A stretch of 63,969 nt of DNA, counting the filler, from Licmophora abbreviata (Eukaryota): the NCBI GenBank assembly GCA_900291995.1. It is 12 parts of 12 records of this genome, joined end to end, with 100 filler letters (N's around TTAATTAATTAA, not from the genome) between each part and the next. Parts side by side here need not be neighbours in the genome. Positions count along the whole stretch, not along the records: positions 16,753 to 19,735 come from OLMU01002462.1; 11 more parts are not named here. One strand, written 5' to 3'. Shown here one piece after another: positions 1,246-62,388 of the stretch. The position numbers and the translations under genes are program-made. Below the pieces are notes generated by a model that saw nothing but the letters and a program-made list of their open reading frames with translations, did no database searches and had not been told where the DNA came from. How positions within the stretch are numbered: the first letter of the stretch is position 1; every line of letters starts with the position of its first letter.

Positions 1246-3097
1246 ATGGCGTCGTCGATGCTGTGGACGGCAGCAGCTCGTCGTAGCTCTATCGCATTGG
1301 CTACAGCCGTGACTGCTACCGCAGCCTATTCGTTTGCTTCTGATGTTCCATCAAGTCTCGGAGCCGCAGACTGCGAAGCTGTCGCACGCGCGGAACCCAC
1401 CCCCGGCGCCACGACACCACTCAGGACAAGGGTGCGTACGTATTGGATTTCAGGTGTCATGCATGCTTCTGGTCGATTGTCTATTGCGTCATGTCATATT
1501 TTATTATTCACCCTCCTTTTTCGTTCTTCCTCCACACGATACACAGATGACGTCGATTGGACGATTCTCGCTACAGTCCGAGACGTCATCAAACCCTTCA
1601 CTTCCCACCTTCTTCATTGGCCTCGTCGGCAACAAACCCTTTACCTCGCAAGACTTTGTGAAACGATGGAACGAACGAGACATGAGAAATCGCCATCCAC
1701 GATTCCATCTGCGAGTTAGCGAATCCCACCCTGGACACTTTGAGCCGACCGTCAACAGTATGAGTGACGATCGTGAAAGCACCGGTACCAGCGGGAAGAA
1801 CAACAAGAACGATAGGCTGGACATGCACGTAAAAGATACCATGTTTCCTGTGGTTCATCGCTCCGAACTCAAACATCGACTGCAGTCGTGTTTGACAGAT
1901 CCACTGCATGTCTTTACATCACTCTGGCAAGTGCAAGTCTCATCAGGTGGTACATTGGGGACAAGCGGGGCTATCTCGCAACACAAGGTTAGGGCTGCCA
2001 AACAGCAGTATCCCAACGCCGTCGAAACTGTCTTGATCTTTCGAGGACACCATGCGCTGGGAGATGGAGTCTCCTTGGGAGCGGCCTTTCTAGAACTTAC
2101 GGACGAGGCCGATGAAATGCAGCAAATGGTTGTGGATGAACTTCAGAAACGACGAGACAAGAAGCGAACGTTGACACGCTGGCAAAAGTTCTTGTTATAC
2201 TTGAAGCGTATGGCGTGGTTCATCAATGGATCCGTCATGGCCGTTTGGCATCAGCTTTACTTGCTATGCGTTACACCCCAAAGCCCATTTGATGAGATTC
2301 GCAGATTTCTACCGTCAGTAGTTCAAGACGAAGCTGACGCCAACGTTGGCGTTGCGCGACGATCGCTCTCGTGGTGTGATGCCACGACTGTCGACGAGGT
2401 CAAGCAAGTGGCACGGGCCATGGGACCAAGGGTGACGGTAAATGATGTTTGGGTCAGCTGTATTTCGCATGCAGTTGCCAAACAGATTGAGCAGCATCGC
2501 CAGCATGTGGCTGCAATACGCGGAGAGGACAAAGACGAAAGCAACATGGTTCCGACTCGCAAGCACATGAATGTCGTCATTCCAGTTCACTTGAAGGGTG
2601 GTATGCTGTTGCCAGGGGAGTCGTTGGGCAATGCGATTGGAGCGTTTACTGCACGAGTTCCTGCGGAAGGCCCGATGTCATCGCGTAAGCGTCTTGACGA
2701 AGTTCACAAGTCACTGTCTTGGGTCAAGCAAACGCCTGCACCGTTCCTCTCTTATGGAGTGGCGAAGGCAGCATCGGCGCTGCCTGTGTCCCTCACAAAG
2801 TGGCTGTTTGCCTCGGCGAATGCGAATGCCTGTGTGGCAATCACCAACGTACGTGGCTCTCCCAAGAAACTGCATATTGACGGGCGCTCGGTCGAATCAT
2901 CGGCAGCATTTCTTCCACTGCCGCCCAACATTCCCATTGGCTGTGCGGTCAGTAGTTATGCCGGCGTCATGACACTCAGTGTCACCGCCGAGCCGTGGGC
3001 TGTTCCGGATGCCGATGCGTTTCTGACATGGACATTGGAAGAGTACCAAAGACTAGCCGCGATGGTCGACGATAGCAGTTTGAAGCCGAAGTCCTAG
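1246..3097 (+). CDS. Wax ester synthase/diacylglycerol acyltransferase (WS/DGAT)
   Basis: HHALGDG catalytic motif, TVNDV, LGNAIG, TNVRG and SYAG motifs; phase-0 GT-AG intron 1432-1546 joins an N-terminal presequence exon. Confidence 0.88.
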
Positions 3098-3169
3098 AGT
3101 AGAGTAGTATTGCCGATATGGAAGTGTCTAGCTAGCTTAGAGCTTCCGCTCAAATCCTGTCGTCCACTT

Positions 3170-3597
3170 TTATAGATTACGACCCAGCGGAACTAGGTCG
3201 TCGCTGCTCTTCGCCATGACAACTGCTTCCAGTTGTGGCGACTGGTGAGTGTAAGGCAGCGGTTCAAAGATGCGTACATGCACATGGTCGTTCTCCCCTG
3301 TAGAGCTGTCGTTGGTTGTCTTTATCTTGACGTGAAACACCATGCCGGCTACTACCTGTTGAACGTAATGGGTTGCCCGAAATATGGAAAACGACGTACT
3401 GAGGTGCGCTTCGACTCGAGGTCGCACTGTGGCCGCGAGTTTCTACGACAGAACGCGCGAAAGGACCCATCCGAGAAATTTGTAAGTGTTGGAACTCACA
3501 GCGATATACCCGAACTTCAATTCACTACTCTCCTTCATACCTGAACTCTCTCATCCGCTTCTCTGACCTCGGAGTGCCCTCCTGCGAGCTGTGACAT
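3170..3597 (-). CDS. Type-1 cystatin (stefin), cysteine protease inhibitor
   Basis: Exon 1 MSQLAGGHSEVREADERVQ (3597-3541), intron 3443-3540, exon 2 with QVVAG and HVRIFEPLP. Confidence 0.88.
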
Positions 3598-4075
3598 GGT
3601 GCTAAAGAAGGACCTTTGCTATTGTGTTGCTGTTGTTGATGGCCGCATCACATCAACAATCACAACTTCGTGAAAACTTCGAAACTGCGATGATGCAGCG
3701 CGCCTTTTCTAAGCGAAGGGAGTCGAACGAATCAACCTTTTTAGCTGGGTTGGTATCGCCAAGGGCCTGATTGATGTTTATATGCTATGAATACTTATGA
3801 GTCTTGCAAGCATGTTTATCCAAATACAAGTACTCCACTTCTGAATGTTGTAATTTCTTCAAACGTATGGTGTATATATCCACATCTGAGGAATTTGGAT
3901 CAGGCTGTCCGCCTCAAAATTTGGATTCAATTTGGAACAGATTTCAGATTTCATCTCTCACAATGACAAGCGGGCCGCTGACGGGAGTCGATCGAGGTGC
4001 TCGCACTCCGCTCCGTCTTGTGTCCCCTTATTTCATGGTCCAGGATCACCAGCAGCCTCGTTGAAGGAGAGTAGC

Positions 4076-7000
4076 ATGAAACACCCGCTGTTGGAATCCA
4101 ATGCAAGTCGACTAAGTGACACAGAAGAAATGTCTACACACGCGTTGCCTGTTCAGAAATCATCAGCTCCGCCGAAGTCGCAACCCCAGCCGCAGCAGCA
4201 GCACCGACGAAGCATGTCCACTGGAAGGAGACGAAACGAACAAGACTTGGAACCGTCTCTGGGAGGAAATAAGAGGGAACCTTCGACCCTCTCGAGGGGT
4301 CGCTCCATGTCCACTCACCGCATGATGAATCAGCCTCCGATTCGACAACGAGTCGATGCTGAACCCTCCAATTCGAGACCAATCAGTACGGGACGAATTC
4401 GCCGCTCCTCATCCAATCAGTCCAGCTCATCCAGGGCATCGTCTCGGAGCTCTTCCCGAGGAGAAGGATTTGACAGAGGAGAGCATCAGTCTGTGACTCG
4501 AGCCATTCTTGATCTCAGAGAAAAACGCGAGCAAGCACAGTCGCGTCGTATGCAGCGGGAGTCTCTCAAGAAACACCCCACTCAACAGCAGCCGCCTCAG
4601 CAAGCCGCGCGACCGCAGCCCTTGTTGGACAAGAGTAGTGCTGTGGGCGACCAACAAGCGACACATCGATTGAAGCAAGTAGAGACGAAAATATCGGGTC
4701 TTATGGAAGAGCTTGACGAGCTTCGTTTCTTCAATGAGATTGCGGCAGAGTCGCCTTCTCCGACTAGCAAGGACGGTGTAATACCAACTCAGTTCCAGTT
4801 GTTGGGTCTTTCTCCATCCAACTCTCCGGATAGAAGCGAGTCGCGAAAAAGAAGGCAACATGCTCAAAGCAAGAAAACATTGTCGCCCCGTCGACTGTCG
4901 GCCATGGATCGGGTGTCACTCGAATTGGAAGCGCAACAGTTGCAGCGGCAGGTCGAAATTCTCGAGCATGAGAAAACTTCGTTAGAGGCGACAGTCGCCA
5001 TGAACAATCGAGCAATCGAATCGCACGACGAGGATACGAAGCGCATTCGACTGCTCGAAAAGGCTCTGCGCACGGTGCAAACCGAACTCGCCTCACAGCT
5101 GGAAGAACTGCAGACAGGACGGACCAAGTTGGTTCAAGAGTACGAGGAAAAGCTTAACATTGTGCAGCGAGAGTATCACTCGACGCGTGATACTGCCAAT
5201 GAGTTACTGGAAAGTCTCCAGGAAACGCAAGAAGCGCTCGAAGAGCTGCAGATACGACACGTGGCGAGCAAGGAGGAAGCGCGGCTGAGAATGGAGGAGC
5301 TGCACGCGGAACACACGGGACGCGAGGATGCATGGATAAAGGAAAAGTCGCGGCTCAACATCAAAGTAGACACCATGACGCAGTCGATGGCCGATCATGA
5401 AGCGGCAGTCGCTCGTTTGGAGACCCAGTTGGAAGAGCTCCATGAGAACCTTGAAACTACCAAGCGGACAAAGGACGAATCGTACGAGCATCGAATCGAA
5501 GTCCTGAGGCAACAGCTCTCCCTCGTTAAGGATCAGTACAACTCCCTGCGATCAGACAACGAGGAGCAGCAGCAGATTCTGGAGGAACGAGAACAATTGC
5601 TTCTTACGGCCAAGGAATCGGAGGAGTCGCAGAAAGATCTTTTGGCAGAGCTCCAATCGCAGTTTGATGGGCAGAATGCAAAACACGACGCCGAACTCCA
5701 GGAGCTCAGGGTGAGCCTGGAAGACCGCGAAAAAAGGCGATTGGACGATCTGGTTTTGTTGCAGCAAGATAACAACCAGGAATACGAACGCCGTCTCAAG
5801 GCGTTGCAGCAACAGCTTACACTTGCGACGGATCGCCATCAGTCGGAAATGGAGCAGAAGGAAAAGGCACTGCAGGAAAAACTGGAAGCAGAGGTGGAGT
5901 CCGTGAAACAGCAGCTTGCAAGTGAATACGAATTGAAAGTGAAAGCCGTCACAGACGAAATGGCATCTGTCCAGACCAAGTACGATGAGGCCAAGGAAAA
6001 GAATCTCCGGCACGAAGTACAATCCGAATCCAAGGACCGCGATGCCGCTCGAGAGTGGGAGCGCAAGGATGCGCTGAGGCAAGGCGAACTGGATCGTATG
6101 AACGATAAGCTCGACCGAACGAGCCGGTCACTGGCCGAGAAGGAGGACAAGATTCAAAGTCTGCAAGATAAGTTGTTAGAAGCCGAACAACGGCACAAGA
6201 ATGCTTCCGCAGAGGTTGAGTTGCAACATGCAGAAGAGCTGTCAGCGCGAGAAGAAATTTTGGCAAACCAGCGCAAGACGCTGAAGGCTAGCGAAAGCAA
6301 GTTAAGAACCGAACTGACTCGTAGAGAGTCAGACTTTTTGGATCTTCGAGACACTTTGGAGGCCGATAACGCGCAACTTCGAGACGAACTTAGTGAGCTG
6401 CGCAGATCTTTAGAGAGCGCCCATAAGGGATCACGGGCAGAAGATCAGCTCATGCAGCGGATAGCGGCTATGCAAGCGTCGATGGACAACTCACAGCAAG
6501 ACTTTGTCGCTGAAAAGTCCCGCCACGATAGGCTTGAGACCGAGATGCGCGTTGAGATTGCAAAGTTAGAAGGAAAACTAGCTGCAACCGAGTCAACGCT
6601 AAAGGAAAAGCGTGGCCTGATTGAAGATCTAGAGCTTCGTCTGACCAGCACCGACGAACAGACTTCCACGGACGTGTCAAAGTATCAGAATCAGATCGCA
6701 GCTCTGGGTCGCGACTTGGATGCATCACGGGCACTATTGGAAAAGGGGCAGCTTGTTGCCGAAGAGAAAGAGACTATCATTGAAGAGTTACAGAAGAGAA
6801 AGAAAGAAGACCAGATACAGCTCAGGAAGAATGTCACGCTGGAAGAAACCATTACGCGGTTAGAGATGGCTCTAGACGAAGCTGAGAAGGAAAAGTCTTC
6901 GCACGCTGCGAGTCTTTCGAAGCTCCAGGAGGATCTCATACAGGCGGAGGGAAAAGCAGCCGATACCCAGAATCGCCATATCGTCGACAAGCAGGAGGTG

Positions 7001-8103
7001 TCGACGGAGCTTACTCGACAACAAGATCAGATACAGAAAATGACACGCGAGTACGAAGATGCCATTGCTGAGCACGAGCAAAGGGTACAAAGTCATGAGT
7101 CCGACAAGATCGCATTGCAGTCTGAGGTAGACGTGTTGAGATCGAAGCTAGAGCATGCGGAGACGATGTCCAGCTCTCGAGACGCAGATTCCGACTCTCT
7201 CAAGAAGCGGATTGCTGAGCTAGAAGCCCAGGTCAAGACGCAGCAAAAGGTTGTCGACCGAGCCGAAGCCATGTCGACTGAGAATGTGAAGGAGCTACGG
7301 CGTCAGTTGGAGGAAGCGGAAGACGCGCAGGAAGATGTTGCTGAAGAACTCGATGGTGTTCTTGGTGAGAAGGCCGAAGTCATTGAGGCTCTGGAGCAAG
7401 TGATTAGCGAGGTCCAGAGTCGGGAAGAGGAAATTGACGCCTTGACGTCAATTCTTCGGAAGCGCGACGAGGAACTCGAGCACGCCAAGCTGATTGCAAC
7501 AAAAGCGATCGCGTCCGCTCAAGAAATCAAGACTCGCTACAAAGAGAAGGGCGTGAAGGAGTTGGATCTGAAGGACAGATTTCGGGATCAGCTCGACGAA
7601 CTCAACGAGTCTTTGGTGTATGTCACGGAAAAGCACGACCTGCTGAAGCAAAAGACACAGTCACTGGAGTCAGAACTTCAAAACAAGACCATGGAATGCG
7701 CCCGTCTGATAGACATCCTCAATGATACAAGATCGAATGATCAAAAACTAACATCCAGCGCAAGATATGGTTCCGTCCCAATGGAGGGCAATGGACGCGT
7801 CAACGGGGGCAACGCGAAGAAAGGACTGAAGCTGATGGAAAAGGGATTTGAATCTTTTGAAGACGAACACTCCGCATCGCAGTCGGATTCTGTGATGTTG
7901 GATACTTCCATGTCAACAGCGACGGCCGATCTGGGGGACGCCACGAAATGGTTGGCTGATTTTGACGAGGACGCCAGCAACGGCAGCTTTCAGCCGCTAG
8001 ATGACGCACAAACCGAGCCCGGTGTAAATAAGTCGCGGCGATCGATCGAACGAGACGCTCTTCGAAAGTATGTTCGGAAACGATACTTGAAGCGGGAAGT
8101 GGA
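4076..8103 (+). CDS. Large coiled-coil protein with low-complexity S/R/Q N-terminus; 3' end cut by contig end
   Basis: Open frame of more than 1300 codons, E/K/L/Q heptad-rich; first ATG 4076; no recognisable enzyme motif. Confidence 0.8.
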
Positions 8104-8203
8104 NNNNNNNNNNNNNNNNNNNNNNNNNNNNNNNNNNNNNNNNNNNNTTAATTAATTAANNNNNNNNNNNNNNNNNNNNNNNNNNNNNNNNNNNNNNNNN
8201 NNN
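8104..8203. other. Artificial contig spacer
   Basis: N44-TTAATTAATTAA-N44 (stops in six frames). Confidence 0.98.
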
Positions 8204-12647: not shown

Positions 12648-12747
12648 NNNNNNNNNNNNNNNNNNNNNNNNNNNNNNNNNNNNNNNNNNNNTTAATTAAT
12701 TAANNNNNNNNNNNNNNNNNNNNNNNNNNNNNNNNNNNNNNNNNNNN
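12648..12747. other. Artificial contig spacer
   Basis: N44-TTAATTAATTAA-N44. Confidence 0.98.
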
Positions 12748-16652: not shown

Positions 16653-16752
16653 NNNNNNNNNNNNNNNNNNNNNNNNNNNNNNNNNNNNNNNNNNNNTTAA
16701 TTAATTAANNNNNNNNNNNNNNNNNNNNNNNNNNNNNNNNNNNNNNNNNNNN
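16653..16752. other. Artificial contig spacer
   Basis: N44-TTAATTAATTAA-N44. Confidence 0.98.
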
Positions 16753-16847
16753 ACACATGTACACACACAGTGATGACAATGCCACTGTGTCGCACCACAG
16801 CCGTATCGTCACCGTCATTGCCGCACGTTCCTTCTTCTATCATCACC

Positions 16848-18094
16848 ATGGACGAACCTGATGCGTCGTCAACGTCGATTTCGAGCGCAGGGTCCGACAG
16901 TAGCAGCATTCCGACGCCAGACTCGTCGTCGTCGCCCATTGCTACGACTGCTACTTCTACTAGCACCACTGCCGCACCCGCCTCGAGCGTTTCAGTCCCT
17001 CACTCCGTCGGCATGCTGCTTCCAGAAGAAAAGACCTTTACCGATCTCGAAGCGTGGCTGTCCAAACTATCACTAGGAACTCCTCTCGCCGAATCCGAAG
17101 TCAAACAGCTCTGCGACATGGCGAGGGAGGTACTGCTTCATGAGTCCAACGTACAGCCCGTCAACGCCCCCGTCACAGTCTGCGGAGACATTCACGGCCA
17201 ATGGCACGATCTCATGGAACTATTCAGAATTGGAGGAAGTGCGCCGGACACCAACTACCTCTTCATGGGCGACTATGTCGACCGTGGCTACTACAGCGTC
17301 GAGACGGTGTCCATGCTGGTCTGTTTGAAAGTACGATACCCCAACCGCGTCTATGTCTTGCGAGGAAATCATGAAAGTCGACAAATCACGCAAGTTTATG
17401 GCTTCTACGACGAATGTGTCCGAAAGTACGGAAGTGCCAATGTATGGAAGCTCTTTACGGATCTCTTCGATTACTTCCCCCTCACGGCACTCGTGGAACA
17501 CTCTGTCTTTTGCCTTCATGGAGGACTCTCGCCCTCCATTGACACTTTGGATCACGTGCGCCAGTTGGATCGTGTGCAGGAAGTGCCACATGAAGGGCCC
17601 ATGTGTGACTTGCTCTGGAGCGATCCAGATGATCGCAGTGGATGGGGCATCAGTCCGAGGTGCGTACGACGATAGTGCTGGTTGTAGTTGTATCGAAGCA
17701 ACAATTGTGGGGCATGCCTCTAGGGCTTTGCACAACCTGCTCCAATCATGACACTGCTCGCTCAATTCAACTCTTACACGATTCCATTCCATTGTATTCC
17801 GACAGAGGAGCTGGATTTACATTTGGACAAGACATTTCTCAACAATTCAACGAGCGCAATGGCCTATCTCTAGTCAGTCGAGCCCACCAGCTCGTCATGG
17901 ACGGGTACAATTGGAGTCACGAGCAAGCAGTCGTTACCATCTTTAGTGCTCCCAACTATTGCTACCGATGTGGAAATCAAGCGGCCATTATGGAAGTCGA
18001 TGAAAACCTGAACAAGACCTTTCTACAGTTTGATCCAGCCCCACGTCGAGGCGAACCCCATAACAACAGACGGACTCCAGAGTACTTCTTGTAG
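16848..18094 (+). CDS. PP2A: Serine/threonine protein phosphatase 2A catalytic subunit
   Basis: [47 protein letters not shown]-terminal TPEYFL; intron 17660-17805; start uncertain. Confidence 0.95.
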
Positions 18095-18336: not shown

Positions 18337-19362
18337 CTAGTAGAGAGCCCACATGGCACTCGCAAAAGACACAAGGACAGCGACAAGACCACCGCCGACG
18401 GTGCAATCGACTCCACTGGTACCTCCTTCACGTACAAGCCAAGGTCTCCATGTCTCGCTGTTTCTTGCCACCCAGTCCGATGCTACAGCTTCCACCGTTT
18501 CGTTACCAAAGACGACGCGCTGGAGGAGCTCAATCTGAATCTCGTTGGTCATGCGAAAGTTTTGGAGGAACTCAAAGACTGCAGGGTTCATAGCCTCAAG
18601 ACCAGAAGAAGCAAACTTTTCAGTCCTGTCTTCGGGGTAGTCGCATGCGTAAAGGCCATCCTGGTTTGTAATGGAGGCGCGGCAGGCGTCCGTGATTGGA
18701 GGCAAGTCAACCTTTCGAAGGTTGTACTCTCCAACGGCAGCTTCGGGCGTCCACCAGTACATGAGCACTGGTTCTCTGGCTGCCACAGCAGCAGCCAAAA
18801 TGTCAAGGGTCTTGGGCTCGTCACCGGCGTACACTTGAACAAATGGCAGACCGAGGTTGGAAATGATCTGGTCGTCAAGACCGGAGTATCCAGGATCGAC
18901 ACCGAGGAAGCGTCCCAAGGGTGCTGTTTCCGGTGTTGCAAAGAGCTCTGCCGTACTGTTGAGAGTATAGAACTCCCAGGAGGCCGCCTCCGGATAGTCT
19001 TCGATGACGTAGTCTGGAACAAACCAGCCAATCTGGCCAATCACACCGAGTTGACCGAGTTCGATGATCGACCCCGCACGCACAAGTCCAAGCTGAAGGT
19101 CGTTGATACCCGAGGGCCAAATCTCCAGAACAGCATCCACGTTCTGACCAGCCAGCTGCGTAAAGGTCTCGCCATTTCCCGAGATGACTTCAACGTCGAC
19201 TTCTGTGCCTTCGATCTCTTGCTCGATGACGAGCTCTGCGATCTTTACGTTCAGCGCCGACGATGTCCATTTGTTTTCGACCAAAACTACCGGATCGGCA
19301 GCCTCGCACCTTACGACGAGAGCGACAGCCAACATCGCGAGCGCAAAGATAAGTCTAGCCAT
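18337..19362 (-). CDS. Glycine betaine/choline-type substrate-binding protein (OpuAC/ProX family) with signal peptide and GPI-like tail
   Basis: NKWTSS, VDAVLEIWP, GWFVPDYV, FATPET...GRFLG.DP.Y, YWWTP, ACDYP and WV..N...W..W motifs; intronless; hydrophobic N- and extreme C-termini. Confidence 0.85.
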   Translation of the reverse strand: MARLIFALAMLAVALVVRCEAADPVVLVENKWTSSALNVKIAELVIEQEIEGTEVDVEVISGNGETFTQLAGQNVDAVLEIWPSGINDLQLGLVRAGSIIELGQLGVIGQIGWFVPDYVIEDYPEAASWEFYTLNSTAELFATPETAPLGRFLGVDPGYSGLDDQIISNLGLPFVQVYAGDEPKTLDILAAAVAAREPVLMYWWTPEAAVGEYNLRKVDLPPITDACRASITNQDGLYACDYPEDRTEKFASSGLEAMNPAVFEFLQNFRMTNEIQIELLQRVVFGNETVEAVASDWVARNSETWRPWLVREGGTSGVDCTVGGGLVAVLVSFASAMWALY

Positions 19363-19735
19363 GATTGTCATGCTGTCGAATGCTCCAAACATAGAAAGCA
19401 CACACACACACACACCCTCGTTCATAACCTTGTGTTTTCCGAGCTTGATGAACGACGAGCCGAGATGAGGCGTCAAGGCACGACGATTTGATTTGATTGA
19501 TTCAGAATGACCACTTCTCGTGACTCGTGATGACGCAAGAGTCGTGATTCGACTGTTCGCCACATCTACGGCGGTCTATAACCTAAGACTCTAGAGAAGT
19601 ACTTCCTTAGAGAATCTCAACATCTGTGAGCTGTGCGGACTATACGTTTGCGGGTACTCGTATGTATTGGTAGACCAATCGTAGTCTACGCTCCTTCAGC
19701 GATCCATTACCGCGCTGCCCTATCCAATCGATCTG

Positions 19736-19835
19736 NNNNNNNNNNNNNNNNNNNNNNNNNNNNNNNNNNNNNNNNNNNNTTAATTAATTAANNNNNNNNN
19801 NNNNNNNNNNNNNNNNNNNNNNNNNNNNNNNNNNN
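19736..19835. other. Artificial contig spacer; flanks overlap by 35 nt
   Basis: 19701-19735 is identical to 19836-19870. Confidence 0.97.
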
Positions 19836-20704: not shown

Positions 20705-22568
20705 TCAACCATGCCCTTCAGCGTCGCAAGAAAATGGGGGTCCATGGTTGGACCAGTCAAGTTCGATGGAACCAAGAGAGCCGACGAGGCCTGTGAACAG
20801 AAAGATCAGTCCAAAAAGAACAAGCCCATACGACGACACAGTGGCACGGGTCGGACTCCAAAGAGGGGCTTGGATTACTCGACGATGGATCACTGCTGGC
20901 AGCAAGAGCGTTAGAGGCACAGATGTCAATGCTCCAATCAATGCTACGAGATCCTTGAAGAACGGAACCACGTTGGCGACCAAGTATGAGGATACCGCCA
21001 TGAGAAGCGTGAGGAGCAGCCAGCGTCGTTTCGGGTGGTGCCGTAAATCAAATACGGTAACGTGGTGAAAGAACATGCGGTCCATAGATGCGCAAATCGC
21101 CTGAGAGTTAATGGCGTATGACACTGCGACGTGTATCCAAAGCAACAAGCCTGCGATGCGTCGGTTCAGGCCTTGCGGGATATCGTCAAACAAAAAAGCC
21201 GGCGGATCTTTTGTGCAGAGCGAACCAAGAAAAATGATCAGAACGCTTCTAGCGCTTGCTACATCCAAACACATCGAATCATCACTTACCAGGTCCCGAC
21301 AATAGACAAATCCCTACGTACACCGTCCCATATAGAGTCAGTGCCGTCCCAAGAGACTTTGGCGCTTCCTCGCGACGCTTCATTTCGTGACGAATGTTCA
21401 AGAACAGCTTCTGGCTACCAACCGCGAATCCAATACTGGCAATCGATGAAAACATTCGCAAGACAGTCCTGTTTTCGGCAGGTGGCACGTATGTTCCCTC
21501 GTCGATGGGCTGGCTTTGACGTTCTTGCGCCGCCACGAGACACTGTATTACGACAATCGTCAACGTCAGCAAAGAAATGACAGTAGCGGAGCGACCGAGA
21601 TTCGCCATGGTACGCAGCTGACTAAATGCAAACATCAGGGTCGACGCCAGTATTCCTGCCGTTGGTAAGCAGATGGTTCCTTCTCCAATGACAGCCGCAA
21701 CCGCATGAGACATGACGAGAATGTAGTCGCCCAGCACAAGAAATATATTCGTATAGAAGAACGCCATGACGAAATAAGTGGCCCGTGGGTGATGAAAGAC
21801 TTCCTGCGTCATCCCGATAAAATCATACGTCGAAGAATCTGCTTCACGACGATGGTGCTGGTCTTGGCGAAGATGAGCGATTGTCGTCCCGACATCAGCT
21901 CCATGCTGGTGGTCGTGACCAGAAGCTGACTCCTGCACCGACACCGCGGTAGAAGCGATTGGTTCTATCGCCGTATCGGCTAGTTCTGCCCTGTCGGATA
22001 CATCAATGCTCGAATAAGTGCTCCTGTTCTTCTTCCGAGCAACTCGCACTAGACCATCGCCTCCACTCATGTGCTGTTCAACAGAATCCGTTGGTGAACC
22101 AGCCGCAGCATCTCCAATCACCACCACGGAGTCAGGATGATCTTTTCGTGGGTCTCGCTCCTGATCTAGTTCAACCTGCACCGCCGCATTGCTGAGAATC
22201 GTTCCTGCAAAGAGATTAATGGGTAGATTTAAAATGAGGAATCCCAATCCCACCGCACGCCCCAAAACTTTGACATCCTGTGGCAACGCTAACAGCCCAG
22301 TCCCAAGACAGTCGGCAGTGAGTAGTGCTGCCGCCTGTAGCATATTCAAATCGTTCTCGGAGGGATCAGTATACGAGGAATCGGTGTCGACCGACAATGC
22401 GTCGCTGATCGTGCCTTCATTTTCGTGATCCTGTGCAGGTAGACGATGGTGCTGAGCCGTCCGACTCACAGCGGGACTACTTGACAAGCGAATGTCAGCG
22501 GCGGAACTCTCGCTCAGCTCAACACCCGTCTGTGACGACCAGGACTCGCTCTTTCCAAACTTAGACAT
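20705..22568 (-). CDS. Amino acid/auxin permease (AAAP, Aa_trans) family transporter
   Basis: LGTGLLALP, FAVGSQKLFLNIRHEM, VPFFKDLVALIGAL..VPLTLLLPA; multiple TM segments; intron 21208-21289. Confidence 0.88.
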
Positions 22569-22947
22569 GATCTTTGTTCATGCGGGGACACAAGGAAAGA
22601 GCTACTATGCTCTGAACGATGTGTTTGCTCGCAATTCAGCAGCCGTCGCGACCCATCATGGTTATGTCGCCTCGTCGCCGCACTTTCTAGTTTGGTCCAT
22701 TTGCGAGTTCCAAGTTTCGAAAAACCTTCAATCCGAGCTCCCACTGTACAACTGTACGAAGACCTAACATACCTGTTCACAAAGACAGGCGTTGGGGCGC
22801 GCAATATTTTCAGGAGCGTGGACCCACTCTTTCGTTCGCTCCCTTGTTCCTCGCTTGTGCATGTTTCTTCGACGCCGGTTGAGTCCAGCGAAAAAGGAAC
22901 AGTCCTTGCTACCAGTGTTTGAGCGCCGTCGCAGATCAAAGATAACC

Positions 22948-24458
22948 ATGGAGGAGACCGCCGCTCCGGATGTGCTTGCCAGCTTCGCCTTGACTGGTGA
23001 GTTTTGTATATAATCAGTGATGAAGTAATTTTATGATATGTACGTATTCAGCTCTTCTAATCACTTACGAAATCTGGCATTTCGAACACCATCTTCTTCG
23101 CTCGACAGAACTCAAGGTCGGTCGACTGATTGGCAAAGGCGGCTTCAGCTTTGTCAATGATTTAGAAGGCATCGAACTTAATGAAGTCTACGACATGTCG
23201 GACGAGGATGCTAGAATTAGAAGGGACTTTGCCCGACACTCGGGTAGTCTCGACCCTGACCATCGCTATGTCGTCAAGATGCTGCGCGATGACTTGCCCG
23301 AGGACGAACACACCAAGGGTGTGGTCGACTTGGCCATTGAAGCGGAATTTCTGCAGAATCTCTCGCATCCGAACATTGTCAAGATGAGAGCGACGGCCAA
23401 TTCGGATCCTTACGAGGGAAAATTCTTTGTNNNNNNNNNNNNNNNNNNNNNNNNNNNNNNNNNNNNNNNNNNNNTTAATTAATTAANNNNNNNNNNNNNN
23501 NNNNNNNNNNNNNNNNNNNNNNNNNNNNNNGACGGCCAATTCGGATCCTTACGAGGGAAAATTCTTTGTCGTACTCGACTATCTTCGACTCACTCTGGAA
23601 CGACGGATGAATTTTTGGAGAAAGGACGTCGGGACGAACATTGGTGTCTGGATGGGACCATGCTGTGGATACTGGTGTGCAAAGAATCACGAATTGTATC
23701 GTATCTGGTTGGAACGCATGATTGTCTGTAGAGATCTCGCCAAGGCTATCAGATATCTCCACGACCAAGATATCGTCTATCGAGACTTGAAACCAGACAA
23801 TGTTGGATTCGATTCCAAAGGCGAAGTCAAGCTTTTTGACTTTGGGCTTGCGAAGCGACTCGATCCCACCGATAAGCTGGACGACGAACTCTACGATCTC
23901 ACCGGCCAAACTGGATCGTTGCGATATATGGCTCCTGTAGGTAGTCCCTGACTGGCTGCGAGTGTTCTCACTGCATTGGACCGCAAGCTAACTCTTTGTT
24001 CTGCTCGCGCTAAACGACAGGAGGTGGCTCTGGAAAAGCCCTATAACAAAAGCGTCGATTTGTATAGTTTCGGGATACTGTTTTGGCAGATTTGCTCCCT
24101 GACGACGCCTTACGCGGGCATGACGACGAAGAGTCATTGCGAGAAGGTGTTGAAGCAAGGCCATCGCCCAAAGCCGGATGCGACATGGCCCATGACATGG
24201 GTGCAGCTGATGAAAGATTGTTGGTCTACGGATATCTTTGCACGCCCTGACTTTGACCACGTGGTTCGTATTCTCGATGCTGAAGTGAATGAGATTATGA
24301 GAGAGGAAGGTGTCGTCCCGACTCGTGCGTCAGAGATTCGCGCCAAGAATCGGAAGCAAAAGAAGTTCAAAAAGGGAGAGAAACGATTGGATGTGGACAC
24401 AAGAATACACATGGACGAAGATCCGAGCATCAAGCGATTCGATGCCAATGTTGTATGA
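22948..24458 (+). CDS. Protein kinase (TKL-like) split across a contig join
   Basis: GKGGFS, VVK, YRDLKPDN, DFGLAK, GSLRYMAPE, DLYSFG, RPDF; introns 22997-23108 and 23937-24020; frame continuous after removing spacer and 39-nt overlap. Confidence 0.9.
23431..23530. other. Artificial contig spacer; flanks overlap by 39 nt
   Basis: 23392-23430 is identical to 23531-23569. Confidence 0.97.
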
Positions 24459-38655: not shown

Positions 38656-38755
38656 NNNNNNNNNNNNNNNNNNNNNNNNNNNNNNNNNNNNNNNNNNNNT
38701 TAATTAATTAANNNNNNNNNNNNNNNNNNNNNNNNNNNNNNNNNNNNNNNNNNNN
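38656..38755. other. Artificial contig spacer
   Basis: N44-TTAATTAATTAA-N44. Confidence 0.98.
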
Positions 38756-40245: not shown

Positions 40246-40345
40246 NNNNNNNNNNNNNNNNNNNNNNNNNNNNNNNNNNNNNNNNNNNNTTAATTAATTA
40301 ANNNNNNNNNNNNNNNNNNNNNNNNNNNNNNNNNNNNNNNNNNNN
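40246..40345. other. Artificial contig spacer
   Basis: N44-TTAATTAATTAA-N44. Confidence 0.98.
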
Positions 40346-44768: not shown

Positions 44769-44868
44769 NNNNNNNNNNNNNNNNNNNNNNNNNNNNNNNN
44801 NNNNNNNNNNNNTTAATTAATTAANNNNNNNNNNNNNNNNNNNNNNNNNNNNNNNNNNNNNNNNNNNN
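44769..44868. other. Artificial contig spacer
   Basis: N44-TTAATTAATTAA-N44. Confidence 0.98.
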
Positions 44869-49448: not shown

Positions 49449-49548
49449 NNNNNNNNNNNNNNNNNNNNNNNNNNNNNNNNNNNNNNNNNNNNTTAATTAA
49501 TTAANNNNNNNNNNNNNNNNNNNNNNNNNNNNNNNNNNNNNNNNNNNN
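49449..49548. other. Artificial contig spacer
   Basis: N44-TTAATTAATTAA-N44. Confidence 0.98.
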
Positions 49549-59679: not shown

Positions 59680-59779
59680 NNNNNNNNNNNNNNNNNNNNN
59701 NNNNNNNNNNNNNNNNNNNNNNNTTAATTAATTAANNNNNNNNNNNNNNNNNNNNNNNNNNNNNNNNNNNNNNNNNNNN
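59680..59779. other. Artificial contig spacer
   Basis: N44-TTAATTAATTAA-N44. Confidence 0.98.
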
Positions 59780-62288: not shown

Positions 62289-62388
62289 NNNNNNNNNNNN
62301 NNNNNNNNNNNNNNNNNNNNNNNNNNNNNNNNTTAATTAATTAANNNNNNNNNNNNNNNNNNNNNNNNNNNNNNNNNNNNNNNNNNNN
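62289..62388. other. Artificial contig spacer
   Basis: N44-TTAATTAATTAA-N44. Confidence 0.98.

What the first reader, a model, noticed from the sequence alone, without database searches (positions are those of the whole stretch)
18337..19362. Bacterial betaine-type ABC binding protein converted into a GPI-like eukaryotic surface protein
Seen: an intronless ~340-aa ORF with signal peptide MARLIFALAMLAVALVVRCEA, a complete OpuAC/ProX-type domain rich in Trp/Tyr, and a tail GGTSG-VDCT-VGGGLVAVLVSFASAMWALY* with no cytosolic residues. It shares a contig with an intron-containing PP2A gene, so simple bacterial contamination is unlikely. Knowledge: OpuAC/ProX proteins bind quaternary amines and related osmolytes for prokaryotic ABC importers; diatoms have precedents of borrowed binding proteins (FBP1, CBA1). 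Inference: a horizontally acquired (by recollection actinobacterial-like) surface receptor for glycine betaine, choline, proline betaine or DMSP working without ABC permease/ATPase.
Basis: partly seen in the sequence, partly recalled or inferred. Interest (0 to 1): 0.8.

Follow-up and report, generated by a model that had tools for sequence, protein, structure and literature searches.

The report
Diatom surface protein borrowed from bacteria
A diatom-like alga carries a bacterial osmolyte-binding protein, taken from actinobacteria, that has lost its bacterial lipid anchor and gained a eukaryotic export signal and a GPI-type tail, so it probably captures or senses betaine-like compounds at the cell surface.

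Summary
Window 18337-19362 (minus strand) is an uninterrupted 341-aa ORF: ER-type signal peptide, complete OpuAC/ProX-type binding domain (Pfam E 5.6e-30; AF2 pLDDT 92; best folds TmoX, DmpX, OpuAC, ChoX, ProX), then a short polar spacer and a 16-22-residue uncharged hydrophobic end.

The window is 12 contigs glued by linkers. The gene's contig is only 2,983 bp, but it also holds a PP2A gene with a GT-AG intron.

The protein belongs to a small clade (100/99 support): the query plus seven proteins that all carry the same kind of tail, one of them 99% identical to an MMETSP eukaryote transcript. This clade sits among Acidimicrobiia lipoprotein SBPs (43-53% identity).
- Those bacterial genes mostly lie beside ABC ATPase/permease genes.
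- None of 156 bacterial-type loci has the tail.
- The ORF's GC3 matches its eukaryotic neighbours, not the bacterial homologues.

Best reading: an HGT-derived binding protein for a quaternary-ammonium/sulfonium solute whose membrane anchor moved from the N to the C terminus. The aromatic cage is intact. The Glu used by TmoX and DmpX is Ile, so the ligand is open.

GPI attachment, the ligand, expression of this gene and absence of ABC partners remain untested. New variant of a known kind; moderate interest.

The parts
18337..19362 (-). Whole coding sequence of the OpuAC-type protein (341 aa plus stop codon at 18337-18339), no intron
   Evidence: it is the only copy in the window by tblastn
19300..19362 (-). 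Signal peptide, residues 1-21 (MARLIFALAMLAVALVVRCEA). Cleavage after Ala21 is inferred from the -3/-1 rule. There is no lipobox.
   Evidence: Sequence. A lipobox-like motif occurs in 116 of 119 close bacterial hits and in 0 of 7 clade proteins. No signal-peptide predictor was run.
18436..19293 (-). OpuAC/ProX-type two-lobe binding domain, residues 24-309, with cage residues W32, W82, Y159, W204 (plus W113, Y202) and conserved C227/C240
   Evidence: Pfam; PDB sequence matches 4xz6 and 7yle; AF2 model pLDDT 92.4; Foldseek; column conservation
18388..18435 (-). Short polar, small-residue spacer, residues 310-325 (VREGGTSGVDCTVGGG), with a candidate GPI omega site at G313/G314
   Evidence: My own rule-based check; pLDDT 58-72 over this stretch
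18340..18387 (-). Hydrophobic C-terminal end, residues 326-341 (LVAVLVSFASAMWALY). No residue follows it. It is either a GPI attachment signal or a C-terminal membrane anchor.
   Evidence: predicted helix at 324-340
19363..19425 (-). In-frame upstream extension from an alternative ATG at 19423-19425, crossing a (GT)n run. Probably 5' UTR.
   Evidence: clade relatives start at the signal peptide
16773..18094 (+). PP2A catalytic-subunit gene on the same contig: exon 1 16773-17659, GT..AG intron 17660-17805, exon 2 17806-18094. It shows the contig is eukaryotic.
16653..16752 (.). Artificial linker (44 N + TTAATTAATTAA + 44 N) marking the left end of the gene's contig
19736..19835 (.). Artificial linker marking the right end of the gene's contig. 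The 35 bases on each side are identical and occur nowhere else in the window, so the next contig is probably the true neighbour.
20708..22577 (-). Neighbouring Aa_trans (amino-acid/auxin permease family) gene in two reading-frame pieces, upstream on the same strand on the overlapping next contig. A candidate partner only.
   Evidence: PF01490, E 4.6e-17 and 2.7e-16. The link to the OpuAC protein is speculation.

Best explanation
This is a nuclear gene of a diatom-like stramenopile. It descends from an Acidimicrobiia-type (Actinomycetota) ABC-importer substrate-binding lipoprotein that was acquired by horizontal transfer and then adapted to the eukaryotic secretory pathway.

The bacterial N-terminal lipobox anchor has been replaced by a cleavable ER signal peptide. 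A new C-terminal module was added: a polar spacer followed by an uncharged hydrophobic end with nothing after it. That module most likely directs GPI anchoring, or failing that acts as a C-terminal membrane anchor.

The mature protein would therefore sit on the outer face of the plasma membrane as a two-lobe 'Venus flytrap'. Its intact aromatic cage (W32, W82, Y159, W204) would close on the trimethylammonium or dimethylsulfonium head of a small osmolyte. Candidates are glycine betaine, choline, proline betaine or a DMSP-like compound.

With no ABC translocator beside it, it would either hand the ligand to a secondary carrier or be endocytosed (scavenging), or report the ligand to a membrane receptor (sensing).

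Shown: the ORF, the domain and fold, cage conservation, the tail architecture across the clade, the placement among Acidimicrobiia-type SBPs, and the eukaryotic context.

Inferred: the secretory route, GPI attachment, the ligand class, independence from an ABC transporter, and the uptake-versus-sensing role.
For: Domain and fold:
- Pfam OpuAC, E 5.6e-30.
- AF2 mean pLDDT 92.4, pTM 0.86.
- Best Foldseek matches are TmoX 4xz6 (TMt 0.86) and DmpX 7yle (0.80), then OpuAC, ChoX and ProX.

Cage:
- Using the alignments and the pockets described in PMC10030565 (passages) and PMC8918994 (passages), the query has W32, W82, Y159 and W204 at the four cage positions.
- In the five full-length single-domain clade proteins these positions read W/W/W/F/F, all W, Y/W/W/Y/Y and all W.

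Eukaryotic context:
- The gene shares a 2,983-bp contig with a PP2A gene split by a GT-AG intron.
- The best named PP2A hits are diatoms: Epithemia 89%, a Leptocylindrus-labelled entry 86%. Triparma follows at 82%.
- The 42 window ORFs scanned are eukaryote-type genes.
- GC3 is 0.584. That lies inside the range of 15 other window coding pieces (0.485-0.603) and below all 80 Acidimicrobiia-type homologues (0.594-0.958, mean 0.798).

Clade:
- In a careful ML tree of 59 rows, the query and 8 tail-bearing rows (7 proteins) form one clade at 100/99. That clade sits inside a 36-row set (98/95) with Acidimicrobiia-type SBPs. A quick tree of 115 rows agrees.
- P0437, an MMETSP transcript, is a complete 357-aa member with the same signal peptide and tail. 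It is 47% identical to the query.

Anchor swap:
- A lipobox-like motif is present in 116 of 119 close bacterial hits and in 0 of 7 clade proteins.
- Uncharged hydrophobic C-ends were found in 7 of 270 first-round hits, all of them clade members including the query, plus P0281.
- No such tail occurs in any of 156 bacterial-type loci (80 genome, 76 metagenome).
- All 8 tails have a polar spacer, small-residue triplets 7-13 residues before the hydrophobic core, and no residue after it.

Bacterial relatives are transporter parts:
- ABC_tran lies next to the SBP gene in 8 of 12 Acidimicrobiia loci sampled. Six of those also have a double BPD_transp_1 permease.
- None of the 42 window ORFs scanned is an ABC part.
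Against: - There is no RNA or protein evidence for this particular gene. No RNA run was listed.
- Linkage to PP2A rests on a single 2,983-bp assembled contig. Metagenome contigs from three runs hold near-identical pieces of both genes, but none bridges them.
- Codon-usage (RSCU) correlation does not discriminate: r is 0.37 with window genes and 0.43 with the bacterial homologues.
- GPI attachment rests on my own crude rule, not on a trained predictor. The spacer between the fold and the candidate omega site is only about 4-5 residues, shorter than in the other clade members.
- The Glu that hydrogen-bonds the ligand in TmoX (Glu131) and acts through water in DmpX (Glu113) is Ile111 here. DmpX Thr64/Ala153 correspond to Asn63/Ser160. 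The ligand therefore cannot be read off the nearest solved relatives.
- The whole genome is not held, so ABC partners elsewhere are not excluded.
- No clade member was found in a named diatom genome.
Confidence: 0.72

Rival explanations
1. The protein is a type I membrane protein held by a C-terminal transmembrane helix (residues ~320-341) with no cytosolic tail, not a GPI-anchored protein. Everything else (HGT origin, surface binding protein) is as in the best explanation.
For: The 22 uncharged terminal residues are long enough to span a bilayer and are predicted helical. The spacer before the hydrophobic stretch is very short in the query. No GPI predictor or GPI-pathway search could be run.
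Against: None of the 8 clade tails has a single residue, let alone a basic one, after the hydrophobic stretch. All have small-residue triplets at omega-like distance. By general knowledge of the positive-inside rule, stop-transfer anchors normally end with cytosolic basic residues. Tail sequences are not conserved although the architecture is, which is typical of a cleaved signal.
Confidence: 0.2
2. The protein is chiefly a sensor or co-receptor. Loaded with ligand, it signals through a membrane receptor (chemosensing of betaine/DMSP-type infochemicals) rather than feeding uptake.
For: In other eukaryotes OpuAC domains form the outer part of signalling proteins. Fusion partners there include 7tm_3 GPCRs, guanylate/adenylate cyclases, cyclic-nucleotide phosphodiesterases, protein kinases and Ephrin_rec_like/TRP proteins. 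Named hosts are Hondaea, Pyxidicula, Amoeba, Willaertia, Naegleria, Mastigella, Pelomyxa, Platysulcus and Prymnesium. OpuAC on 7tm_3 receptors is in print (PMC3251606 and PMC3971589, passages).
Against: Those receptor fusions form a separate clade (99/97). A tree forcing all 17 eukaryote-like rows together is rejected (delta lnL 63.7, p-AU 0.01; I named the group after seeing the tree). The query has no signalling domain, and no partner is known.
Confidence: 0.3
3. Bacterial contamination or a chimeric contig: the ORF is a gene of an Acidimicrobiia-like bacterium wrongly joined to diatom DNA.
For: The contig is only 2,983 bp. The best database hits are bacterial at about 50% identity. No independent contig bridges the two genes. 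RSCU is uninformative.
Against: - No bacterial sequence is closer than 53% identity.
- GC3 is below that of all 80 bacterial homologues and inside the host range.
- A lipobox is absent, whereas 116 of 119 bacterial hits have one.
- The tail is absent from all 156 bacterial-type loci.
- The gene falls in a well-supported clade whose members share these eukaryote-type features, and one member matches an MMETSP transcript at 99%.
- In runs X2 and X3, near-identical pieces of both genes occur together at similarly low depth.
Confidence: 0.04
4. The ORF is only the first exon of a larger receptor, or a decaying unexpressed relic of a transfer.
For: No transcript evidence exists for this gene. Related domains do occur fused to receptors.
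Against: - A stop codon follows the hydrophobic end directly, with no GT at that boundary.
- Only 242 bases separate it from the converging PP2A gene, and the antisense ORF over PP2A has no Pfam match.
- Seven other clade members end the same way, including a transcript-derived complete ORF.
- The ORF is intact, with cage and structural residues conserved.
Confidence: 0.04

Closest known systems
Acidimicrobiia (Actinomycetota) glycine-betaine-type ABC substrate-binding lipoproteins (uncharacterised MAG proteins, e.g. Ilumatobacteraceae, Aldehydirespiratoraceae)
   Same: 43-53% identity over residues ~25-309. Same motifs around the cage (GxIGWFVP, DPxYS, YWWTP), including Ile at position 111 and Tyr at 159. 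The query's clade nests among them.
   Different: They carry an N-terminal lipobox (116 of 119) and end right after the domain (0 of 156 loci with a tail). They are GC3-rich (mean 0.80). They mostly sit beside ABC ATPase and permease genes (8 of 12 sampled). The query has none of these features.
TmoX of Ruegeria pomeroyi (PDB 4XZ6), TMAO-binding SBP
   Same: Best solved relative by sequence (E 2.4e-24) and by fold (TMt 0.86). The four cage positions are aromatic in both.
   Different: TmoX Glu131, which hydrogen-bonds the TMAO oxygen (PMC8918994, passages), is Ile111 in the query. Trp177 is Tyr159 and Phe106 is Ile86 (my reading of the alignment). Identity is about 25%. TmoX is a periplasmic part of an ABC importer.
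DmpX of Roseovarius nubinhibens (PDB 7YLE), DMSP-binding SBP
   Same: Second-best solved relative (E 3e-16; TMt 0.80). DmpX Trp35, Trp84, Tyr200 and Trp202 align with the query's W32, W82, Y202 and W204.
   Different: DmpX Glu113, Thr64, Trp152 and Ala153 (PMC10030565, passages) correspond to Ile111, Asn63, Tyr159 and Ser160 in the query. DMSP binding in the DmpX manner is therefore not supported.
Eukaryotic receptors with an OpuAC ectodomain (7tm_3 'glutamate-type' GPCRs of fungi and protists; cyclase, phosphodiesterase and kinase fusions)
   Same: A bacterial OpuAC domain placed on the outside of a eukaryotic cell behind a signal peptide (PMC3251606 and PMC3971589, passages).
   Different: They form a separate clade and, by the AU test, a separate lineage. 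They carry transmembrane and signalling domains. The query is a stand-alone domain with a GPI-like end.
Diatom FBP1, a surface siderophore-binding protein with structural homology to bacterial FhuD/DesE; also CBA1 (recalled)
   Same: This is what the query most plausibly works like: a bacterial-type binding protein used at a diatom surface without its ABC translocator. Possible HGT origin is discussed in PMC6876252 (passages).
   Different: A different SBP family and a different ligand. FBP1 is paired with the reductase FRE2 and is functionally tested. Nothing is tested for the query. The CBA1 comparison is from my recollection only.

Membership tests
OpuAC/ProX-type substrate-binding domain (Pfam PF04069) | Match to the family profile above the curated cut-off over the full domain | tested here: met
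   105.2 bits against a cut-off of 21.2; profile positions 2-256 of 257
OpuAC/ProX-type substrate-binding domain (Pfam PF04069) | Two-lobe periplasmic-binding-protein fold like solved members | tested here: met
   AF2 pLDDT 92.4. Foldseek probability 1.00 to TmoX, DmpX, OpuAC, ChoX and ProX, with TMt 0.69-0.87 among the top ten.
OpuAC/ProX-type substrate-binding domain (Pfam PF04069) | Aromatic cage for an onium head group | tested here: met
   W32, W82, Y159 and W204 align with the cage residues of TmoX and DmpX and are conserved in the clade. The geometry in the model was not measured.
OpuAC/ProX-type substrate-binding domain (Pfam PF04069) | Binding of betaine, choline or a related ligand | not testable with these tools
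   Needs ITC or thermal shift on purified protein.
Binding-protein-dependent ABC importer (OpuA/ProU type) as a system | Cognate permease (BPD_transp_1) and ATPase (ABC_tran) genes | tested here: not met
   None among the 42 window ORFs scanned. The immediate neighbours are PP2A and Aa_trans. A genome-wide search was impossible because no genome is held. Bacterial relatives have these genes in 8 of 12 loci sampled.
GPI-anchored protein | N-terminal ER signal peptide | tested here: inconclusive
   The sequence fits the n/h/c pattern with Ala at -1 and Cys at -3 and has no lipobox. No predictor was run.
GPI-anchored protein | C-terminal signal: small omega/omega+2 residues, polar spacer, hydrophobic end with nothing after it | tested here: inconclusive
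   Met by my own rule in all 8 clade tails. NetGPI, PredGPI and big-PI were not available.
GPI-anchored protein | Anchor shown chemically (PI-PLC release, C-terminal processing), and a GPI transamidase present in the organism | not testable with these tools
   No genome is held, and this needs bench work.
TmoX (TMAO-specific SBP) | Glu that hydrogen-bonds the TMAO oxygen (Glu131 in 4XZ6) | tested here: not met
   Ile111 at that position (alignment; PMC8918994)
DmpX (DMSP-specific SBP) | Key residues Thr64, Glu113, Trp152, Ala153, Tyr200 together with the Trp cage | tested here: not met
   The query has Asn63, Ile111, Tyr159, Ser160 and Tyr202. Only the cage and Tyr200 are kept.
Eukaryotic OpuAC-receptor fusions | Signalling or 7TM domain after the OpuAC domain; same lineage | tested here: not met
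   A stop codon follows directly after the tail. Separate clade, p-AU 0.01.
Horizontally acquired bacterial gene resident in a eukaryote | Nested among bacterial sequences, host-like composition, physical link to an intron-bearing host gene, relatives in other eukaryotes | tested here: met
   Caveat: the physical link is one 2,983-bp contig that metagenome contigs did not independently bridge.

The most novel reading that the evidence does not exclude
The protein is one half of a eukaryotic binding-protein-dependent uptake system that does not use an ABC transporter. In this reading the GPI-anchored OpuAC protein captures nanomolar betaine-, choline- or DMSP-like solutes at the diatom surface. 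It then hands them to a secondary carrier, with the Aa_trans-family permease encoded just upstream on the same strand (20708-22577) as the candidate. This would be a eukaryotic analogue of bacterial TRAP/TTT systems, built from a horizontally acquired actinobacterial part. The evidence does not exclude this. It rests only on gene adjacency across a 35-base contig overlap and on the absence of ABC parts in the window.
Probability: 0.1. Interest if true: 0.85.

Novelty: new variant of a known kind. Interest (0 to 1): 0.55.

Why it matters
Betaine, choline, TMAO and DMSP are major currencies of carbon, nitrogen and sulfur in seawater. How eukaryotic phytoplankton capture or sense them at low concentration is poorly known.

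A stand-alone, surface-anchored OpuAC protein in a diatom-like alga, with relatives in other marine eukaryotes, would give a concrete and testable molecular handle. It can be expressed, its ligand found, and the gene knocked out. It would join FBP1-type proteins as a case where an alga keeps only the binding half of a bacterial importer.

It is also a tidy example of how a transferred gene is refitted. The membrane anchor moved from an N-terminal bacterial lipobox to a C-terminal eukaryotic signal.

I found no description of such a family in three full-text searches. Those searches cover only the open-access library held here.

Tried and rejected
- **Whole-genome search for ProV/ProW:** not possible, because no genome is held for this window.
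- **Expression:** no RNA holder was listed for the contig.
- **Read linkage:** contigs of four marine or macroalgal metagenome runs were laid on the contig. They hold near-identical short pieces of PP2A, of the intergenic spacer up to 18325, and of the OpuAC ORF (18744-18904, 19157-19448). No piece spans both genes, so linkage is neither confirmed nor contradicted.
- **Codon-usage (RSCU) correlation:** uninformative for a gene this short.
- **N-glycosylation sequon density:** 2.8-13.2 per 1000 aa in six clade proteins against a mean of 2.7 (maximum 8.9) in 119 bacterial hits. The ranges overlap too much to use.
- **Protein atlas:** returned only bacterial OpuAC clusters at scores of 0.85-0.86, leads only.
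- **Metagenome and genome locus scans:** they returned only bacterial-type loci and no new tail-bearing member. The two peptide patterns used would have missed, for example, P0281. My first regex pass over these loci was too strict (21 of 156 recognised), and I replaced it with an HMM pass.
- **First tree:** my every-fourth sampling left out P0071. The tree was redone with it.
- **Earlier findings of this scan:** none by place, sequence or words.
- **Papers that turned out irrelevant:** PMC13149256 (betT expansion only), PMC6156597 (GPI only in a reference) and PMC12972064 (bacterial ProX). PMC3387780 gives GPI predictions for dinoflagellate alkaline phosphatases, not for diatoms.
- **Plastid targeting:** considered and set aside. 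The residue after the predicted cleavage site is Ala, not the aromatic or Leu residue of the diatom ASAFAP-type motif. That motif is recalled, not tested.
- **Complex prediction with the Aa_trans neighbour:** not attempted. Adjacency alone is not reason enough, and the neighbour's protein would need joined exons.
Full report
**What is in the sequence**

On the minus strand, 18337-19362 is an uninterrupted ORF of 341 codons plus a stop. It has three parts.
- It begins with MARLIFALAMLAVALVVRCEA: a short basic start, a 14-residue hydrophobic core, and Cys/Ala at -3/-1.
- It continues with a full OpuAC/ProX-type domain. Pfam PF04069 matches at E 5.6e-30, residues 24-299 against profile positions 2-256 of 257.
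- It ends, right after the invariant W..W motif of the family, with VREGGTSGVDCTVGGG followed by LVAVLVSFASAMWALY and the stop codon.

An in-frame ATG 63 bases upstream would add 21 residues across a (GT)n run. The closest eukaryote-like relatives start directly with the signal peptide, so I take 19362 as the start. Only one copy lies in the window. The long antisense ORFs over this gene and over PP2A have no Pfam match.

**The window is not one contig**

It contains eleven identical 100-bp linkers (44 N, TTAATTAATTAA, 44 N) that join twelve contigs of 1.5-15 kb. The gene's contig is 16753-19735, 2,983 bp.

That contig also carries a PP2A catalytic-subunit gene. Exon 1 (16773-17659) ends in ...GWGISPR. 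A 146-bp GT..AG intron (17660-17805) follows, and exon 2 (17806-18094) resumes with GAGFTFGQD. The two genes converge, with 242 bases between their stops.

The 35 bases at the right end of this contig are repeated at the start of the next contig and occur nowhere else in the window. The next junction overlaps by 39 bases. So 16753-38655 is probably one stretch of genome.

All Pfam matches among the 42 window ORFs I scanned are ordinary eukaryote-type families: thioredoxin, WS/DGAT, PhyH, Aa_trans, DHODH, rhomboid, DUF6824, WD40 and others. None is an ABC ATPase or permease.

PP2A exon 1 is most similar, among named entries, to diatoms. Epithemia is at 89% and a Leptocylindrus-labelled entry at 86%, with an unnamed MMETSP transcript at 90%. 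Triparma and Heterosigma follow at 82% and Ectocarpus at 79%. From this I call the organism diatom-like. This is a rough inference from a single conserved protein.

**Fold and binding site**

With a 70-sequence alignment, AlphaFold2 gives mean pLDDT 92.4 and pTM 0.86. Only the last ~30 residues are low (58-72), with a predicted helix at 324-340.

Foldseek ranks these solved structures highest:
- TmoX with TMAO (4xz6, TMt 0.86)
- DmpX with DMSP (7yle, TMt 0.80)
- then lactococcal OpuAC, ChoX, ProX and the OpuA transporter.

Sequence search of the PDB gives the same two leaders (E 2.4e-24 and 3e-16).

I took the pocket residues from two papers, reading passages only. PMC8918994 describes TmoX and PMC10030565 describes DmpX. 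I mapped them through the alignments:

| Query | TmoX (4XZ6) | DmpX (7YLE) | Role in the solved protein |
|---|---|---|---|
| W32 | Trp55 | Trp35 | cage |
| W82 | Trp102 | Trp84 | cage |
| Y159 | Trp177 | Trp152 | cage |
| W204 | Trp222 | Trp202 | cage |
| Y202 | Phe220 | Tyr200 | flanks the cage |
| Ile111 | Glu131 | Glu113 | bonds the ligand's polar end |
| Asn63 / Ser160 | – | Thr64 / Ala153 | carboxylate contacts |

Across five full-length single-domain clade proteins the cage stays aromatic (W/W/W/F/F; all W; Y/W/W/Y/Y; all W). C227 and C240 are nearly invariant family-wide.

The residue that bonds the ligand's polar end, however, is Ile111 here. The Acidimicrobiia relatives also have Ile or Val at that position.

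So the head-group cage says 'quaternary ammonium or tertiary sulfonium'. Which compound it binds cannot be read from the solved relatives.

**Relatives**

The best database hits are bacterial SBPs at 45-53% identity. Many are named Acidimicrobiia. A scan of one genome per prokaryote species kept its 80 best loci. Nearly all are Acidimicrobiia MAGs (Acidimicrobiales, Ilumatobacteraceae, Aldehydirespiratoraceae, Acidimicrobiaceae). A few are labelled only Actinomycetota or 'bacterium', and two are from one MAG labelled Acidobacteriota. Identity is 43-52%.

In 12 of these loci I scanned 39 flanking ORFs, a subset of the 204 listed. An ABC_tran gene lies beside the SBP gene in 8 loci, and 6 of those also have a ~650-aa double BPD_transp_1 permease. 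In the other 4 I found none among the ORFs I chose, which is not proof of absence.

The exhaustive representative search (1,122 proteins at E ≤ 0.001, best 150 listed) added sequences that look eukaryotic. They are of two kinds.

*Stand-alone proteins like the query:*
- P0071
- P0128
- P0135
- the two-domain P0122
- the fragments P0179 and P0204
- P0281, found later by a profile search.

*Long fusion proteins, in which an OpuAC domain is followed by:*
- 7tm_3
- Guanylate_cyc
- PDEase_I
- a protein kinase
- Ephrin_rec_like/TRP modules.

Where the fusion proteins carry names, they come from Hondaea, Pyxidicula, Amoeba, Willaertia, Naegleria, Mastigella, Pelomyxa, Platysulcus and a Prymnesium MAG. 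OpuAC on 7tm_3 receptors has been published (PMC3251606 and PMC3971589, passages).

**Phylogeny**

I built a careful ML tree of 59 domain rows (LG+G4; rows chosen by me from the hits; two rows are half-length fragments).
- The query and all eight tail-bearing rows form one clade with 100/99 support.
- That clade sits inside a 36-row set (98/95) otherwise made of Acidimicrobiia-type SBPs. The exact sister group is unresolved.
- The receptor fusions form a separate clade (99/97) among other bacterial SBPs.

A quick tree of 115 rows gave the same picture. Forcing all 17 eukaryote-like rows into one clade costs 63.7 log-likelihood units (p-AU 0.01). I named that group after seeing the tree, which weakens the test.

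Branch lengths within the tail clade are long, with paths of about 1.2-2 changes per site. The clade is therefore old and diverse, not a recent contaminant.

**The anchor swap**

| Feature | Close bacterial hits / loci | Tail-clade proteins |
|---|---|---|
| Lipobox-like motif in first 45 residues (permissive regex) | 116 of 119; the other three look N-terminally truncated or mis-started | 0 of 7 |
| Uncharged hydrophobic C-terminus | 0 of 156 loci (80 genome, 76 metagenome), which end within about 20 residues of the domain | 7 of 270 first-round hits, all clade members counting the query, plus P0281 |

All eight tails share one architecture, but not their sequence:
- an acidic or Ser/Gly/Asn-rich spacer;
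- small-residue triplets 7-13 residues before the hydrophobic core;
- 12-27 uncharged residues (no Asp, Glu, Lys, Arg or His) running to the stop, holding a 15-22-residue hydrophobic core, with nothing after it.

That is the pattern of a GPI attachment signal. It was judged by my own rule and not by a trained predictor. A C-terminal transmembrane anchor without a cytosolic tail is the alternative.

**Is it really eukaryotic?**

Points in favour:
- It shares a contig with an intron-bearing PP2A gene.
- GC3 is 0.584. That lies within the 0.485-0.603 range of 15 other coding pieces in the window. It is below every one of the 80 bacterial homologues (0.594-0.958, mean 0.798).
- It has a non-lipoprotein signal peptide and the tail.
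- It belongs to a clade that shares these features.
- P0281's 90%-identity cluster contains P0437, an MMETSP transcript encoding a complete 357-aa protein with the same signal peptide and tail. P0437 is 47% identical to the query. My recollection that MMETSP libraries come from cultured, poly(A)-selected marine eukaryotes is not taken from a call.

Points against, or neutral:
- The RSCU correlation does not discriminate.
- No RNA run was listed for this contig.
- Metagenome contigs do not bridge the two genes. In runs X2 and X3, pieces of both genes occur at ≥99% identity and similarly low depth.
- No clade member comes from a named diatom genome.

**How it most likely works**

Shown: a complete, well-folded OpuAC domain with an intact cage, a secretory-type N-terminus, and a membrane-anchoring-type C-terminus.

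Inferred: the protein enters the ER, loses its signal peptide, is GPI-anchored or stays anchored by its last helix, and faces the sea at the plasma membrane. There it closes on a betaine-like solute.

By established knowledge, binding-protein-dependent ABC importers are prokaryotic, and none lies in the window. The loaded protein must therefore act in some other way. It could pass the ligand to a secondary carrier or be endocytosed. The diatom FBP1, a FhuD/DesE-like siderophore-binding protein that works with the reductase FRE2, is the closest working precedent (PMC6876252, passages). Alternatively it could signal through a partner.

I put roughly even odds on scavenging versus sensing. The adjacent Aa_trans permease gene (20708-22577, same strand, on the overlapping contig) is a tempting partner, but adjacency is all there is.

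**Novelty**

Co-option of bacterial binding proteins by eukaryotes is known. Examples are class C GPCR flytraps, the OpuAC-7tm_3 receptors and FBP1.

What I did not find in print is a stand-alone OpuAC family in marine eukaryotes with a GPI-type end, derived from Acidimicrobiia-like lipoproteins. The searches were 'OpuAC + diatom', 'glycine betaine + substrate-binding protein + diatom + horizontal gene transfer' and 'OpuAC + eukaryot'. They cover the open-access library only, and I opened no supplements.

I rate this a new variant of a known kind, with moderate interest.

Noticed in passing
window 8104-8203, 12648-12747, 16653-16752, 19736-19835, 23431-23530, 38656-38755, 40246-40345, 44769-44868, 49449-49548, 59680-59779, 62289-62388: Eleven identical 100-bp linkers (44 N + TTAATTAATTAA + 44 N) show that the window is a pseudomolecule of 12 contigs of 1.5-15 kb. 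Gene neighbourhood across a linker is therefore not evidence. The exceptions are junctions 3/4 and 4/5, where the contig ends overlap by 35 and 39 bases.
   Followed up: yes
window 20708-22577 (-): An Aa_trans (PF01490) permease gene in two reading-frame pieces, with a ~240-residue N-terminal extension that has no Pfam match. It lies just upstream of the OpuAC gene on the same strand and is a possible carrier partner. By recollection, plant ProT betaine/proline carriers belong to this family.
   Followed up: partly
proteins P0132, P0213, P0226, P0233 (7tm_3); P0170, P0184, P0207, P0219, P0222, P0232, P0264 (Guanylate_cyc); P0158, P0161, P0268 (PDEase_I); P0251 (kinase); P0178, P0236, P0266 (Ephrin_rec_like/TRP): A second, separate eukaryotic OpuAC clade in which the domain is the ectodomain of several kinds of signalling protein. 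Named hosts include amoebozoans, heteroloboseans, a labyrinthulomycete, Platysulcus and a Prymnesium MAG. Only the GPCR fusions were found in the papers read. The cyclase, phosphodiesterase and kinase fusions may be undescribed.
   Followed up: partly
protein P0122 (701 aa, unnamed Logan contig of 3,384 bp): A tail-clade member with two tandem OpuAC domains, then a long acidic linker and the hydrophobic end. Both domains group with the query in the tree.
   Followed up: partly
loci L006, L007, L013, L016 (about 2700-4300, + strand): In four of the twelve Acidimicrobiia loci sampled, a pectinacetylesterase-family (PAE, PF03283) gene lies just upstream of the SBP-ATPase-permease operon. This is an unexplained conserved neighbour.
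   Followed up: no
window 19398-19416 (-), approximate coordinates: A (GT)n microsatellite of about 9 units in the likely 5' UTR of the OpuAC gene, between the upstream in-frame ATG and the preferred start.
   Followed up: no
window 3890-8100 (+): A 1,403-residue open frame with a strong AT and GC skew in its region (AT skew 0.26-0.27 over 4001-8000) and no Pfam match at E ≤ 1e-5.
   Followed up: no
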